Shown here: piece after piece, positions 1 to 2,271 of the stretch
Layout: each line of letters begins with the position of its first letter
How positions within the stretch are numbered: the first letter of the stretch is position 1
Assembly (NCBI GenBank): GCA_030623545.1
Contig: JAUXLW010000001.1
Span: forward strand, 1-26,925
Length of the DNA: 26,925 nt
Origin: Acidimicrobiia bacterium
Lineage (GTDB): Bacteria > Actinomycetota > Acidimicrobiia > Spongiisociales > SHLN01
Reading direction: 5' to 3'
Made by a program: the position numbers and the translations under genes
The notes under the pieces: model-generated
What the model was told of the DNA's origin: nothing
Databases searched by the model: none
The model's input: only the letters and a program-made list of their open reading frames with translations

Positions 1-2271
1 CTGCTCACCAGCGCGCTGGAGGACATCGAACAACTTGGCACCAGGGGATCGGAAGTCACGGGCATCCCCACCGGGTTCCACGACCTCGACCGCAAATTGG
101 CAGGACTTCACCCCGCAAACCTCATCGTCATCGCCGCGCGGCCGTCTATGGGAAAGTGCTTGGTGGGCGAGACGCGACTTGTGGATCCGAAGACAGGTGA
201 GATAAGCACCATTCAGGAGCTCGTAGAAGACCGGGACCGGCAAGGCACATGGCACACGATCTCACTCAACGAGGCTGCTCTCCAGCTGGAGACCTCCGCA
301 CCCATCGATTTCATCGACAACGGAATGGAGGACACATTCCGCCTACGTACGAGGCTCGGACGCGAGATCGTCGCCACTGCCAACCATCCTTTCCTCACGG
401 TGCATGGTTGGAAAGACCTCGGTGAACTCGAATTGGATGATGCCATCGCAGTCCCCCGCCGGATTGACAGTTTCGGAGTCGATGAGTTGCCAGACGCCGA
501 GGTTGCTCTCCTGGGCTATCTGATCGGAGACGGCTCGTTAACCGGCCCCACCCCTCGTTTCACAACAGCGGATGACGAAATCGCCGAAGATTTTGCTCGC
601 TTTGCCGACGACCTCGGCCTCGACGTTTCCGTCACCTCGGAAGAGCGGGCCGCGCTCACATACCGGTTGAAACGACGCCGGGGGCCCTCCCAAGCAGACG
701 TGGCCGTGGCATCCAGGGTCAGCCCCGCCACCGTGAGTATCGCTCTCGGACCCGACAGCGACAGGCTCAATGAGACAACGGTCGACGCCGTGCGGAAGTC
801 CGCTGAATCCCTCGGCTATGTAAATCGAGGTCCCAGTCCCGAGAACCCGGTCATGCTGCTACTAGAGCAGCACGGTCTTGCCGGCACTACCTCCCACACC
901 AAGTTCGTGCCCCCCGCGGTCTTTCGTTTGCCAGAGCGACAGATGGCCCTCTTCTTGTCCCGCCTGTACGCAACAGATGGCTCGGCCTGGGTGCACGACA
1001 ACATGTATCGGATCGAGTACGCGACAGTTTCAGAGCGCCTCGCGCGAGACGTTCACCACCTGCTCCTTCGTTTCGGAATAAGCGCCAGGTTACGGAAGCG
1101 TCTCGTGAAATACGGGTCGGGCAGACGCCGGGCCTGGGACGTCGCGATCCAGGATCCTGCAAGTGTCAGGCGTTTTGCAGATCGGATAGGACTCTTCTCG
1201 AAGGAACCAAAACTGAGAGCAGTCGTCGAGATGGCCGACAGCCGATCACGTGATCGGGCCGCAGTCGATCTTCTTCCGATGCAAGTGTGGGAGATCATCA
1301 TGGAGGCAAAGGGAGGCCGGTCGTGGGCCGAGGTGTCCGAAGCAGCCGGTCGGCCTCGAAACCACAACTGGCACGTTCGGGCACGTAGACCATCACGTTC
1401 CCTGGCAAAGGAGCTGGCCGAAATCCTCGAGAGCTCCGAGCTTCTCACTCTTGCCGAATCCGATGTGGTGTGGGATACCGTCGTTCACATCGAGCCGGCG
1501 GGAAAACGACGGGTGTATGACTTGACCATCCCGTCTTATCACAACTTCATTGCCAACGACATCGTCGTTCACAACAGTGCCCTGGCGACGAACATCGCGC
1601 TCAACGTTGCCCGCCAGGGCCACCCGGTGGCCATCTTCACGCTCGAGATGAGCCGGGAAGAAGTGGTGCAGCGCCTGCTGTGTGCTGTCGGTCGGGTCGA
1701 TTCTCAGAAACTGAGGACCGGTCAACTCCAGGAGCAGCAGTGGCAGCGAGTGGCTCGCGCCGCCGGCGATCTTTTCGAAGCCCCGGTTTACATCGACGAC
1801 TCGGCGTCCCTCACCGTCACCGAGATCAGGGCCAAATGTCGCCGCCTCAAGCGGCAGCGCGGCCTTGGCCTTGTCGTGGTCGACTACCTCCAACTCATGA
1901 CCGGCGGCAACCGCCGTACGGAGAACCGCCAGCAAGAAATCGCCGAGATCAGCCGCAACCTCAAGAACCTGGCGCGCGAGCTGGCAGTGCCGATCATTGC
2001 CGTTTCGCAGCTCAACCGTGCTCTGGAACAGCGGCAAGACAAGCGACCGATGTTGGGCGACCTGCGCGAGTCCGGGGCCATCGAGCAGGACTCCGACGTA
2101 GTGATGTTCATCTACCGCGATGAGTACTACCACCCCGAGAATGCTGAAAATAAGGGGGTGGCCGAGGTCAACATCGCCAAACACCGCGCCGGAGCCACCG
2201 GCCGGGTCACCATGACCTTCCTGGCCGAGTTCACCCTATTCAGTGATCTGGGCCGCGACGTGGCGGTCTAG
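1..2271 (+). CDS. dnaB: Replicative DNA helicase DnaB (5'-partial, intein-containing)
   Basis: Frame 1 is open from base 1 (LLTSALEDIEQLGTRGSEVTGIPTGFHDLDRKLAGL), so the ORF-track start at 97 is not the true start. Walker A ARPSMGK|S is split by the intein. The C-extein has VVVDYLQLM, RQQEIAEISRNLK, SQLNR, DLRESGAIEQDSD and IAKHRAG. Confidence 0.98.
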   Translation: MLTSALEDIEQLGTRGSEVTGIPTGFHDLDRKLAGLHPANLIVIAARPSMGKCLVGETRLVDPKTGEISTIQELVEDRDRQGTWHTISLNEAALQLETSAPIDFIDNGMEDTFRLRTRLGREIVATANHPFLTVHGWKDLGELELDDAIAVPRRIDSFGVDELPDAEVALLGYLIGDGSLTGPTPRFTTADDEIAEDFARFADDLGLDVSVTSEERAALTYRLKRRRGPSQADVAVASRVSPATVSIALGPDSDRLNETTVDAVRKSAESLGYVNRGPSPENPVMLLLEQHGLAGTTSHTKFVPPAVFRLPERQMALFLSRLYATDGSAWVHDNMYRIEYATVSERLARDVHHLLLRFGISARLRKRLVKYGSGRRRAWDVAIQDPASVRRFADRIGLFSKEPKLRAVVEMADSRSRDRAAVDLLPMQVWEIIMEAKGGRSWAEVSEAAGRPRNHNWHVRARRPSRSLAKELAEILESSELLTLAESDVVWDTVVHIEPAGKRRVYDLTIPSYHNFIANDIVVHNSALATNIALNVARQGHPVAIFTLEMSREEVVQRLLCAVGRVDSQKLRTGQLQEQQWQRVARAAGDLFEAPVYIDDSASLTVTEIRAKCRRLKRQRGLGLVVVDYLQLMTGGNRRTENRQQEIAEISRNLKNLARELAVPIIAVSQLNRALEQRQDKRPMLGDLRESGAIEQDSDVVMFIYRDEYYHPENAENKGVAEVNIAKHRAGATGRVTMTFLAEFTLFSDLGRDVAV
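157..1575 (+). mobile_element. Class 1 intein (473 aa) with LAGLIDADG homing endonuclease, inserted in the DnaB Walker A motif
   Basis: Starts with Cys1 (CLVGET), block B TANH, block F VYDL, ends VVHN followed by Ser+1. LAGLIDADG motifs LLGYLIGDG (508-534) and FLSRLYATDG (952-981), with KFVP at 901. Confidence 0.97.

What the first reader, a model, noticed from the sequence alone, without database searches (positions are those of the whole stretch)
685..822. LacI-type HTH headpiece inserted inside the intein's LAGLIDADG homing endonuclease
Seen: between the two LAGLIDADG motifs the intein reads PSQADVAVASRVSPATVSIALGPDSDRLNETTVDAVRKSAESLGY. Established: the LacI-family headpiece consensus is roughly TIxDVAxxAGVSxATVSRALN...VSxETRxRVxxAAxELGY, and the match runs through all three helices up to LGY. 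The LacI YxPN motif and hinge helix are absent. From my recollection of related inteins, the stretch between TYRL and NPV is normally a short linker. Inference: a transcription-factor DNA-binding domain has been captured by the endonuclease and may extend or retarget DNA recognition, or give the excised intein a regulatory activity. I do not know of a described example but could not search for one.
Basis: partly seen in the sequence, partly recalled or inferred. Interest (0 to 1): 0.72.

Follow-up and report, generated by a model that had tools for sequence, protein, structure and literature searches.

The report
LacI-type DNA-binding domain inside DnaB intein
The self-splicing intein that interrupts this bacterium's replicative helicase gene carries, inside its DNA-cutting domain, a small DNA-binding module homologous to that of LacI-family repressors, most likely as an extra grip on its target DNA, and I found no paper describing this arrangement.

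Summary
Window 157-1575 is a 473-aa class-1 intein in the Walker-A (P-loop, "DnaB-b") site of dnaB. Codons 177-222 (nt 685-822) form a three-helix domain homologous to the LacI-family headpiece.

- **Homology.** The query alone is just under Pfam's cut-off (25 bits against 27, E 1.5e-5). A profile of 26 orthologous inserts hits solved LacI-family headpieces at E 8e-15. The AlphaFold model of the insert retrieves only LacI-family headpieces among its top 40 matches.
- **Discrete module.** It is about 49 aa long and sits between strand β4 and helix α3 of the first LAGLIDADG half. Same-site inteins that are about 57% identical elsewhere lack it.
- **Distribution.** It occurs in Acidimicrobiia and in Egicoccus-type Nitriliruptoria, and was probably gained once and lost once.
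- **Selection.** dN/dS is about 0.3.
- **Second case.** A cyanobacterial clade of the same intein carries an XRE-type HTH at the same junction.

Function is inferred, not shown. The most likely role is an accessory DNA-binding module for homing-site binding. Caveats are that the hinge helix and effector domain are absent, and the usual base-contacting Arg22 is replaced by Leu. I found no published description. The closest concept is the intein "accessory domain" of Beyer et al. 2022. I class it as a new variant of a known kind, of moderate interest.

The parts
1..156 (+). dnaB N-extein fragment (5'-truncated by the contig end), ending in the Walker-A ...RPSMGK
   Evidence: ORF and translation; PF03796 DnaB_C at E 6e-103 on the whole ORF.
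157..1575 (+). Class-1 intein, 473 aa, at the DnaB-b (P-loop) site. It has Cys1, a block-B TxxH (T74, H77), a terminal His-Asn, and Ser at +1.
   Evidence: PF14890 at E 1e-25; TIGR01445 and TIGR01443; AF2 pLDDT 94 and pTM 0.89; Foldseek top hits are TliVMA, PI-PfuI, PI-TkoII and PI-SceI.
472..681 (+). N-terminal LAGLIDADG half-domain (intein aa 106-175): LAGLIDADG helix 1 (aa 113-125, catalytic Asp125), then the strands up to β4 (aa 167-173).
   Evidence: PF14528 matches in two stretches; DSSP of the model; D125 and G126 invariant in 48 inteins.
685..822 (+). LacI-type helix-turn-helix headpiece (intein aa 177-222; helices 179-186, 190-197, 206-219). The inserted block relative to HTH-less relatives is about aa 177-225 (nt 685-831).
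844..1191 (+). Helix α3 and linker, then the C-terminal LAGLIDADG half-domain (LAGLIDADG helix 2 at aa 260-274, catalytic Asp274).
   Evidence: PF14528 best stretch at aa 262-345; D274 and G275 invariant; DSSP.
1192..1461 (+). Helical region between the endonuclease and the C-terminal splicing strands (aa 346-435). This is the position of the published intein 'accessory domain'. It is present in HTH-less relatives too.
   Evidence: DSSP helices 350-362, 377-385, 390-396, 414-424, 427-433; aligns in all P-loop inteins; dN/dS 0.31-0.34. No informative Pfam match.
1462..1575 (+). C-terminal splicing (HINT) strands, ending ...VVHN.
   Evidence: TIGR01443; DSSP.
1576..2271 (+). dnaB C-extein (starts with Ser+1, SALATN...) with its stop codon.
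   Evidence: It is 90% identical to the intein-less DnaB of two same-family genomes.

Best explanation
Shown: window 685-822 encodes a LacI-family-type three-helix HTH headpiece. It is a discrete module of about 49 aa at the junction between strand β4 and helix α3 of the first LAGLIDADG half-domain. The host is a class-1, endonuclease-bearing intein in the P-loop (DnaB-b site) of the replicative helicase. The module is shared by a clade of DnaB-b inteins in Acidimicrobiia and Egicoccus-type Nitriliruptoria. It is under purifying selection and has been cleanly lost in one nested subclade.

Inferred: it acts as an accessory DNA-binding module of the homing endonuclease. Tethered by two flexible linkers next to the DNA-binding β-saddle, it adds contacts to the intein-less dnaB homing site. 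These are probably largely backbone or low-specificity contacts. The result would be higher affinity, or a longer or shifted footprint, in the way published intein accessory domains modulate binding and cleavage-site choice.
For: - **Homology.** Pfam LacI at E 1.5e-5 for the query and down to 2.4e-14 for orthologues, with 26 of 26 matching. The profile against PDB hits CytR, LacI, CcpA and PurR headpieces at 8e-15 to 1e-6. The AF2 insert model (pLDDT above 90 over the helices) has LacI-family headpieces as its top 40 Foldseek hits, with TM 0.53-0.74 and mostly rmsd 1-2.5 A.
- **Discrete module.** MAFFT alignments show 6-10 aa in place of the insert in same-site inteins. Genome hits split at query aa 171-177 / 223-229, with 0-7 aa between the pieces.
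- **Fold context.** In the whole-intein AF2 model (pLDDT 94) the insert lies between E167-173 and H231-238, with pLDDT dips on both linkers.
- **Selection.** HTH pairwise identity is 45% against 50% for the neighbouring endonuclease half. dN/dS is 0.25-0.31, like the other accessory region and well below 1.
- **Endonuclease and splicing residues.** Both catalytic Asp-Gly are invariant, and Cys1 and the terminal His-Asn are present.
- **Mobility.** Two same-family genomes have empty sites, and the distribution across 401 class genomes is sporadic.
- **Retained residues.** The Ser/Thr positions that I recall contacting the DNA backbone in LacI-family headpieces (equivalents of Ser16, Thr19, Ser21, Thr34) are conserved in the clade (combined with established knowledge).
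- **Second capture.** A different, XRE-type HTH occupies the same junction in a cyanobacterial clade of the same intein. Each insert is closer to its own transcription-factor family than to the other.
- **Precedent.** HTH-like accessory domains in inteins change DNA binding and site choice (PMC8966425).
Against: - No DNA-binding or cleavage data exist.
- Model coordinates could not be inspected, so it is not shown that the recognition helix faces DNA.
- The equivalents of LacI Leu6 and Arg22 (base contacts in LacI-family complexes) are Gln and Leu in most members. Position 17 is variable, and Asn25 is not conserved. This argues against a conserved sequence-specific readout.
- The hinge helix and dimerisation domain are absent, and isolated LacI headpieces bind DNA weakly (established knowledge).
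- dN/dS is three to five times higher than in the catalytic cores.
- In the query's own subclade the HTH-turn Gly is lost.
- One subclade lost the module yet keeps its catalytic residues, so the module is dispensable.
Confidence: 0.6

Rival explanations
1. Tolerated passenger or structural filler. The HTH was captured once and persists because it folds independently in a permissive loop. It no longer binds DNA and contributes nothing to homing.
For: Typical base-contact residues are replaced (Arg22 to Leu, Leu6 to Gln) and specificity position 17 is variable. dN/dS is higher than in the cores. There is a clean loss in a nested subclade that keeps the catalytic Asp residues. The query subclade lacks the turn Gly.
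Against: dN/dS is about 0.3, not about 1. LacI signature residues are retained across two classes at 45% pairwise identity. A second HTH family occupies the same junction in another clade, which is hard to explain by neutrality. Only a few decayed remnants were seen (P0105, P0086).
Confidence: 0.2
2. Moonlighting regulator. After splicing, the free intein uses the LacI-type HTH to bind an operator and regulate transcription, for example of dnaB or other genes.
For: The domain family is otherwise used almost exclusively by repressors. WhiA is a precedent for a LAGLIDADG scaffold turned transcription factor (PMC3240954 and PMC11701221, listed).
Against: There is no hinge helix, no dimerisation or effector domain, and a single HTH per monomer. 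Catalytic Asp residues are retained, unlike WhiA as I recall it. The intein is absent from same-family genomes, so it cannot have an essential regulatory role. In a 97%-identical relative, dnaB follows rpsR-rplI directly, with no obvious promoter or operator region of its own.
Confidence: 0.08
3. Splicing or helicase-maturation sensor. DNA binding by the HTH within the unspliced DnaB precursor tunes splicing, so that helicase activation is coupled to DNA.
For: P-loop DnaB inteins in mycobacteria show conditional splicing (PMC6195587). The intein sits in the ATPase P-loop.
Against: This is purely speculative. The HTH is in the endonuclease domain, remote in sequence from the splice junctions. 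HTH-less sister inteins occupy the same site.
Confidence: 0.05

Closest known systems
Accessory domains (ACDs) of endonuclease-bearing inteins: TliVMA (7QSS), PI-TkoII (2CW7), PI-PfuI (1DQ3), and the DRR of PI-SceI (Beyer et al. 2022, PMC8966425)
   Same: An extra, modular domain on a HINT plus LAGLIDADG intein. Some are HTH-like, they modulate DNA binding and cleavage-site choice, and they are hypothesised to derive from transcription factors. These inteins are the best structural matches of the whole model.
   Different: Published ACDs sit between the endonuclease and the C-terminal HINT part, or inside HINT in PI-SceI. The paper reports no sequence-level assignment of them to a transcription-factor family. 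Here the module is inside the endonuclease domain (β4/α3 of the first half) and is assignable by sequence to the LacI family. This intein also has a helical region at the usual ACD position.
LacI/GalR-family repressor headpiece (PF00356; LacI, PurR, CcpA, CytR)
   Same: Three-helix HTH with the family signature (S-x-D-V-A...G-V-S-x-A-T-V-S...T-x-x-x-V...A-A-x-x-L-G-Y); profile E 8e-15; same fold.
   Different: No YxPN or hinge helix and no periplasmic-binding-protein-like effector or dimerisation domain. Arg22 is Leu and Leu6 is Gln. It is embedded in another protein's loop rather than at an N-terminus.
WhiA (LAGLIDADG scaffold plus C-terminal HTH; 3HYI)
   Same: Combines a LAGLIDADG fold with an HTH. 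It appears among the Foldseek hits (rank 50) and as a weak PF14527 match.
   Different: As I recall, WhiA has lost the catalytic residues. It is free-standing, its HTH is C-terminal and sigma-region-4-like, and it is a transcription factor. Here the catalytic Asp residues are invariant and the HTH is internal and LacI-type.
Modular DNA-binding domains of other homing endonucleases (the I-TevI HTH, the I-HmuI NUMOD-like domain)
   Same: The principle of a small HTH module appended to a nuclease to extend the target (own knowledge; PF22083 appears as a weak hit on an unrelated protein).
   Different: Those are GIY-YIG or HNH enzymes with terminal, linker-tethered modules, not an insertion inside a LAGLIDADG half-domain of an intein.
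DnaB-b (P-loop) inteins of mycobacteria (Msm DnaBi1, Mle DnaBi; PMC6195587, PMC4760082)
   Same: Same insertion point in the DnaB Walker-A motif.
   Different: Msm DnaBi1 is a class-3 mini-intein without an endonuclease. The present one is class 1 (Cys1) with a full LAGLIDADG endonuclease plus the HTH.

Membership tests
LacI-family HTH domain (Pfam PF00356) | Sequence match to the family HMM at or above the gathering score (27 bits) | tested here: inconclusive
   The query scores 24.3-25.1 bits (E 1.5e-5 to 3.9e-4), just under the cut-off. Orthologous inserts reach E 2.4e-14, and many orthologues carry a precomputed PF00356 hit. The clade profile scores E 8e-15 to solved headpieces.
LacI-family HTH domain (Pfam PF00356) | Three-helix headpiece fold (HTH plus third helix) | tested here: met
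   AF2 gives helices 179-186, 190-197 and 206-219. For the isolated insert model, the top 40 Foldseek PDB hits are all LacI-family headpieces, with TM 0.53-0.74 (E-values of 0.03 to 0.5 are weak because the domain is small).
LacI/GalR-family transcriptional regulator (whole protein) | Hinge helix (YxPN...) following the headpiece | tested here: not met
   After LGY the sequence runs straight into the conserved intein N-P-[LV] helix α3.
LacI/GalR-family transcriptional regulator (whole protein) | C-terminal periplasmic-binding-protein-like effector and dimerisation domain | tested here: not met
   There is no Peripla_BP hit on the intein or the ORF. Genuine regulators in the representative search do have one.
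Class-1 intein with LAGLIDADG homing endonuclease | Cys/Ser1, block-B TxxH, C-terminal His-Asn, nucleophile at +1 | tested here: met
   C1, T74/H77, H472-N473 and S+1 are present. C1, H77, H472 and N473 are invariant in 48 sequences. PF14890, TIGR01445 and TIGR01443 match.
Class-1 intein with LAGLIDADG homing endonuclease | Two LAGLIDADG helices, each ending in a catalytic acidic residue | tested here: met
   PF14528 matches in two stretches. D125-G126 and D274-G275 are invariant. The fold matches PI-PfuI, TliVMA and I-OnuI. Enzymatic activity was not tested.
Intein accessory domain (ACD) sensu Beyer et al. 2022 | Extra domain located between the endonuclease domain and the C-terminal HINT segment | tested here: not met
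   The LacI-type HTH lies inside the endonuclease domain, between β4 and α3 of the first half. A separate helical region (aa 346-435) occupies the canonical ACD position.
Intein accessory domain (ACD) sensu Beyer et al. 2022 | Modulates DNA binding or cleavage-site choice of the intein endonuclease | not testable with these tools
   This needs EMSA and cleavage assays with and without the module.
WhiA-type LAGLIDADG-HTH transcription factor | Free-standing protein, degenerate LAGLIDADG active site, C-terminal HTH | tested here: not met
   This protein is embedded in an intein, its catalytic Asp residues are invariant, and its HTH is internal. PF14527 scores only 20 bits, below the cut-off.

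The most novel reading that the evidence does not exclude
The β4/α3 junction of the first LAGLIDADG half in DnaB-b inteins is a natural docking port for transcription-factor HTH modules. A LacI-type headpiece in Actinomycetota and an XRE-type HTH in Cyanobacteria were captured there independently, and each extends or shifts the endonuclease's DNA target. This would be the first sequence-traceable natural evidence for the proposal that inteins escape extinction by acquiring DNA-binding domains from transcription factors. It would also be a natural blueprint for HTH-meganuclease chimeras.
Probability: 0.4. Interest if true: 0.7.

Novelty: new variant of a known kind. Interest (0 to 1): 0.55.

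Why it matters
LAGLIDADG endonucleases are hard to re-engineer, so a naturally tolerated site for an extra DNA-binding module would be of practical interest. Beyer et al. [quoted passage not shown] They based this on structurally diverse accessory domains whose origin could not be traced.

Here the origin can be traced by sequence, to the LacI family, and in a sister case to the XRE family. The insertion point is new: it lies inside the endonuclease fold. A natural gain/loss series exists, with HTH-bearing inteins, HTH-less inteins and empty sites among close relatives. That makes the question testable with simple cleavage and EMSA experiments. One HTH-bearing intein comes from a named strain record (Egicoccus sp. 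AB-alg2).

If the module proves inert, the finding is only a domain-architecture curiosity.

Tried and rejected
1. **Representative search with the insert profile.** I looked for other intein hosts carrying a LacI HTH. The top 150 were dominated by proteins with several tandem HTHs and by ordinary LacI regulators. Apart from the known orthologues P0013 and P0075, the only additional endonuclease-linked hit I identified was a 234-aa fragment of the same intein type (P0241). Only nine of the unfamiliar hits were checked by Pfam. This does not settle whether other hosts exist.

2. **ESM-Atlas feature search of the endonuclease part.** Scores were at most 0.82, so these are leads only. They are LAGLIDADG_3 clusters, some with HTH_3 and none with LacI.

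3. **Recent capture from the host's own LacI regulators.** The genome has one true LacI-family gene. The insert is shared across two classes, so capture is ancient and no donor can be named. I did not pursue this further.

4. **Looking for a LacI-like operator half-site in the empty homing site.** The joined flanks are highly conserved because they encode the P-loop region. With 8 occupied and 5 empty alleles, no signal can be separated from coding constraint, so I dropped this.

5. **A single ancestral HTH for the LacI-type and XRE-type inserts.** hhalign gives 86% probability but only 19% identity. Each insert is far closer to its own transcription-factor family, and HTH-less lineages lie between them in the tree. 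I judged this less likely, but it is not excluded.

6. **Monophyly of the HTH-bearing inteins (single gain, no loss).** The AU test rejects it at p 0.007. The group was defined after the first tree was seen.

7. **Geometry of the HTH relative to DNA.** The tools return no coordinates, so this could not be tested.
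Full report
**What is at the coordinates**

The window opens inside a 5'-truncated dnaB (window 1-2271, + strand; PF03796 E 6e-103). The Walker-A motif is split after ...RPSMGK by a 473-aa in-frame element (window 157-1575) that begins with Cys, ends in His-Asn and is followed by Ser.

- Pfam and NCBIfam identify it as an intein: PF14890 at 1e-25, plus TIGR01445 and TIGR01443. It has two LAGLIDADG_3 stretches (2e-21).
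- By the published site nomenclature the P-loop position is DnaB insertion point b (PMC4760082; PMC6195587).
These are intein aa 177-222, between LAGLIDADG motif 1 (aa 113-126) and motif 2 (aa 260-275).

**Is it a LacI-type HTH?**

Taken alone, the query matches PF00356 over profile positions 4-44 of 46. The score is 24.3-25.1 bits (E 1.5e-5 to 3.9e-4), just under the 27-bit gathering score. Against PDB it matches only the CytR DNA-binding domain, at E 5.6e-4.

The case becomes strong with orthologues.

- A search of the 5.8-billion-protein collection found many DnaB proteins of about 910-925 aa, named Acidimicrobiia where a name exists. Many already carry a precomputed PF00356 hit.
- I aligned 26 insert segments (A1). 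All 26 match PF00356, with a best E of 2.4e-14.
- The profile hits 48 LacI-family chains in PDB (CytR 8e-15, LacI headpiece about 1e-12, CcpA, PurR, FruR) before any other family appears.
- AlphaFold2 on 48 aligned inteins gives pLDDT 94 and pTM 0.89, with three helices at 179-186, 190-197 and 206-219.
- The insert modelled alone has pLDDT above 90 over the helices. Its top 40 Foldseek PDB hits are all LacI-family headpieces, with TM 0.53-0.74 and mostly rmsd 1-2.5 A. The E-values (0.03 to 0.5) are weak because the domain is small.
- There is no YxPN or hinge helix. After L-G-Y the chain runs into the N-P-[LV] helix that all P-loop inteins share.

**Is it a discrete insertion?**

Yes.

- In a MAFFT alignment of 74 P-loop-site inteins, the Acidimicrobiia group has a block of about 47-50 aa where the others have 6-10 residues. 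The others are cyanobacterial, Streptomyces-type and Acidobacteria-type inteins, mostly about 400-440 aa long.
- In 401 genomes sampled from the class, G000, G066 and G270 match the query contiguously.
- G082, G001 and G348 (same order) carry same-site inteins that are 57-58% identical over the C-terminal part. Their match breaks at query aa 171-177 / 223-229, with only 0-7 residues between the two pieces.
- In the fold, the block lies between strand β4 (E167-173) and helix α3 (H231-238) of the first LAGLIDADG half. pLDDT dips to 76 and 70 on the two linkers.

**Distribution and history**

- A phylum-level sample found the same architecture in 4 of 19 genomes of another family.
- One of these is Egicoccus sp. 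AB-alg2 (WP_373679415.1), with LacI at E 9.8e-6 at the same position.
- I built a maximum-likelihood tree with the insert columns masked. The 28 Acidimicrobiia HTH-bearing inteins and 7 HTH-less inteins form one 100/100 clade.
- The HTH-less group is itself 100/100 and is nested inside that clade (node 98/82).
- The four Egicoccus-type inteins are the weakly supported sister (66/42).
- Forcing all HTH-bearing rows into one clade is rejected (AU p 0.007). The caveat is that the group was defined after the first tree was seen.
- One gain followed by one clean loss is the most parsimonious reading.
- Two genomes of the window's own family have uninterrupted P-loop sites, although their DnaB C-terminal part is 90% identical. 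So the intein comes and goes among close relatives.

**Selection and activity proxies**

- Among the 28 Acidimicrobiia-clade HTH-bearing inteins, mean pairwise identity of the HTH is 45%. The adjacent endonuclease half is at 50% and N-terminal HINT at 51%.
- Nei-Gojobori estimates against an 83%-identical relative give dN/dS 0.31 for the HTH. This is like the helical region at aa 346-435 (0.31). The endonuclease and HINT cores are at 0.05-0.11.
- Both catalytic Asp-Gly pairs, Cys1 and the terminal His-Asn are invariant in 48 sequences.
- The module is therefore constrained, but more loosely than the catalytic parts. The endonuclease looks intact.

**A second HTH at the same junction**

- Four cyanobacterial-type inteins in the first alignment had longer inserts at the same place.
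- A targeted search found 22 DnaB proteins sharing it, for example in Pleurocapsa sp. PCC 7319.
- Their profile (A3) hits an XRE/Cro-C1-type HTH protein in PDB at 2.3e-9. Members match HTH_19, HTH_31 and HTH_3, down to 7.7e-8.
- A1 against A3 gives only 86% hhalign probability at 19% identity. Each insert is far closer to its own transcription-factor family than to the other, and HTH-less lineages separate them in the tree.
- Independent capture of two HTH families at one structural junction is the likelier reading. A single ancient HTH is not excluded.

**How it most likely works**

This section is inference. The first LAGLIDADG half here shows only short strands where free-standing enzymes, as I recall, have a long β1-β2 ribbon. 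A folded HTH tethered at the end of β4 could reach DNA beside the saddle.

- The Ser/Thr positions that I recall contacting the DNA backbone in LacI-family headpieces are conserved (equivalents of Ser16, Thr19, Ser21, Thr34).
- The base-reading positions are not. Arg22 is Leu in 20 of 28, Leu6 is Gln in 20 of 28, and position 17 is variable.
- I therefore expect added affinity or a shifted footprint more than a strict new specificity.
- This agrees with the published behaviour of intein accessory domains. In that work, deleting the TliVMA accessory domain reduced DNA binding and changed site choice. The authors proposed that such domains come from transcription factors (PMC8966425).
- I could not inspect model coordinates, so the orientation toward DNA is untested.

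**Rivals**

- An inert passenger. This is supported by the changed contact residues, the higher dN/dS and the clean loss.
- A regulator role for the free intein. This is weakened by the missing hinge and dimerisation parts, the retained nuclease residues and the intein's absence from close relatives.
- A DNA-coupled splicing switch. This is speculation.

**Novelty**

- Three full-text searches and two targeted readings found no description of a LacI-type HTH in an intein or a LAGLIDADG enzyme.
- The concept of modular, sometimes HTH-like accessory domains is known, and LAGLIDADG plus HTH is known in WhiA.
- Automatic Pfam hits already mark these proteins.
- Earlier notes of this scan list an aRF1 intein with an XRE-type HTH, on other DNA. 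None lists a LacI-type HTH.
- I class this as a new variant of a known kind. What is new is the position of the module inside the endonuclease fold, its sequence-traceable origin, and the gain/loss series that makes its function testable.

Noticed in passing
window 157-1575 compared with L038 (P0004) and L039 (P0003): Synonymous divergence is mosaic. Between the query and the 83%-identical relative, dS is about 1.0-2.5 in the N-extein and intein aa 1-170. It is about 0.4-0.6 from about aa 175 to the intein's end, and 0.7-1.3 in the C-extein. This suggests that the C-terminal two-thirds of the intein, from the HTH onward, was exchanged between lineages more recently than the host gene diverged (partial gene conversion or homing).
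   Followed up: partly
P0118, P0272-P0291, P0063, P0050 (cyanobacterial DnaB, e.g. Pleurocapsa sp. PCC 7319); alignment A3: An XRE/Cro-C1-type HTH of about 70 aa is inserted at the same β4/α3 junction of the DnaB-b intein endonuclease (profile E 2.3e-9 to PDB 2kpj). P0105 and P0086 carry what look like decayed remnants at the same spot.
   Followed up: yes
L041-L044 (G463, G489, G407, G683); L042 = Egicoccus sp. AB-alg2, WP_373679415.1: DnaB-b inteins with the LacI-type HTH also occur outside Acidimicrobiia, in an Egicoccus-containing family. One of them is a named strain record that may be usable for experiments.
   Followed up: partly
P0123 (3982 aa), P0124-P0126, P0134, P0136 (6400-8000 aa); P0128, P0129, P0131, P0132 (about 200 aa): The representative search with the insert profile surfaced giant proteins with 7-11 LacI/XRE-type HTH stretches and no other Pfam domain. 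It also surfaced small proteins made of two or three tandem LacI headpieces. None contains an intein, and their nature is unknown.
   Followed up: partly
P0017, P0102, P0120 (Streptacidiphilus/Peterkaempfera-type DnaB-b inteins), same junction: These carry a different short insert, rich in Cys, His and acidic residues, at the same β4/α3 junction. It is not HTH-like by eye and was not analysed.
   Followed up: no
window 1192-1461 (intein aa 346-435): The helical region at the canonical accessory-domain position includes an HTH-looking stretch (helices 377-385 and 390-396). It is present in all P-loop inteins aligned and evolves as fast as the LacI-type module (dN/dS 0.31-0.34). Its only Pfam match is weak (DUF4912, E 0.003).
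   Followed up: partly
genome G000: The window's genome is a fragmentary MAG: 1.56 Mb in 250 contigs, 73.6% complete. It has a single bona fide LacI-family regulator gene (contig C93, L001).
   Followed up: no
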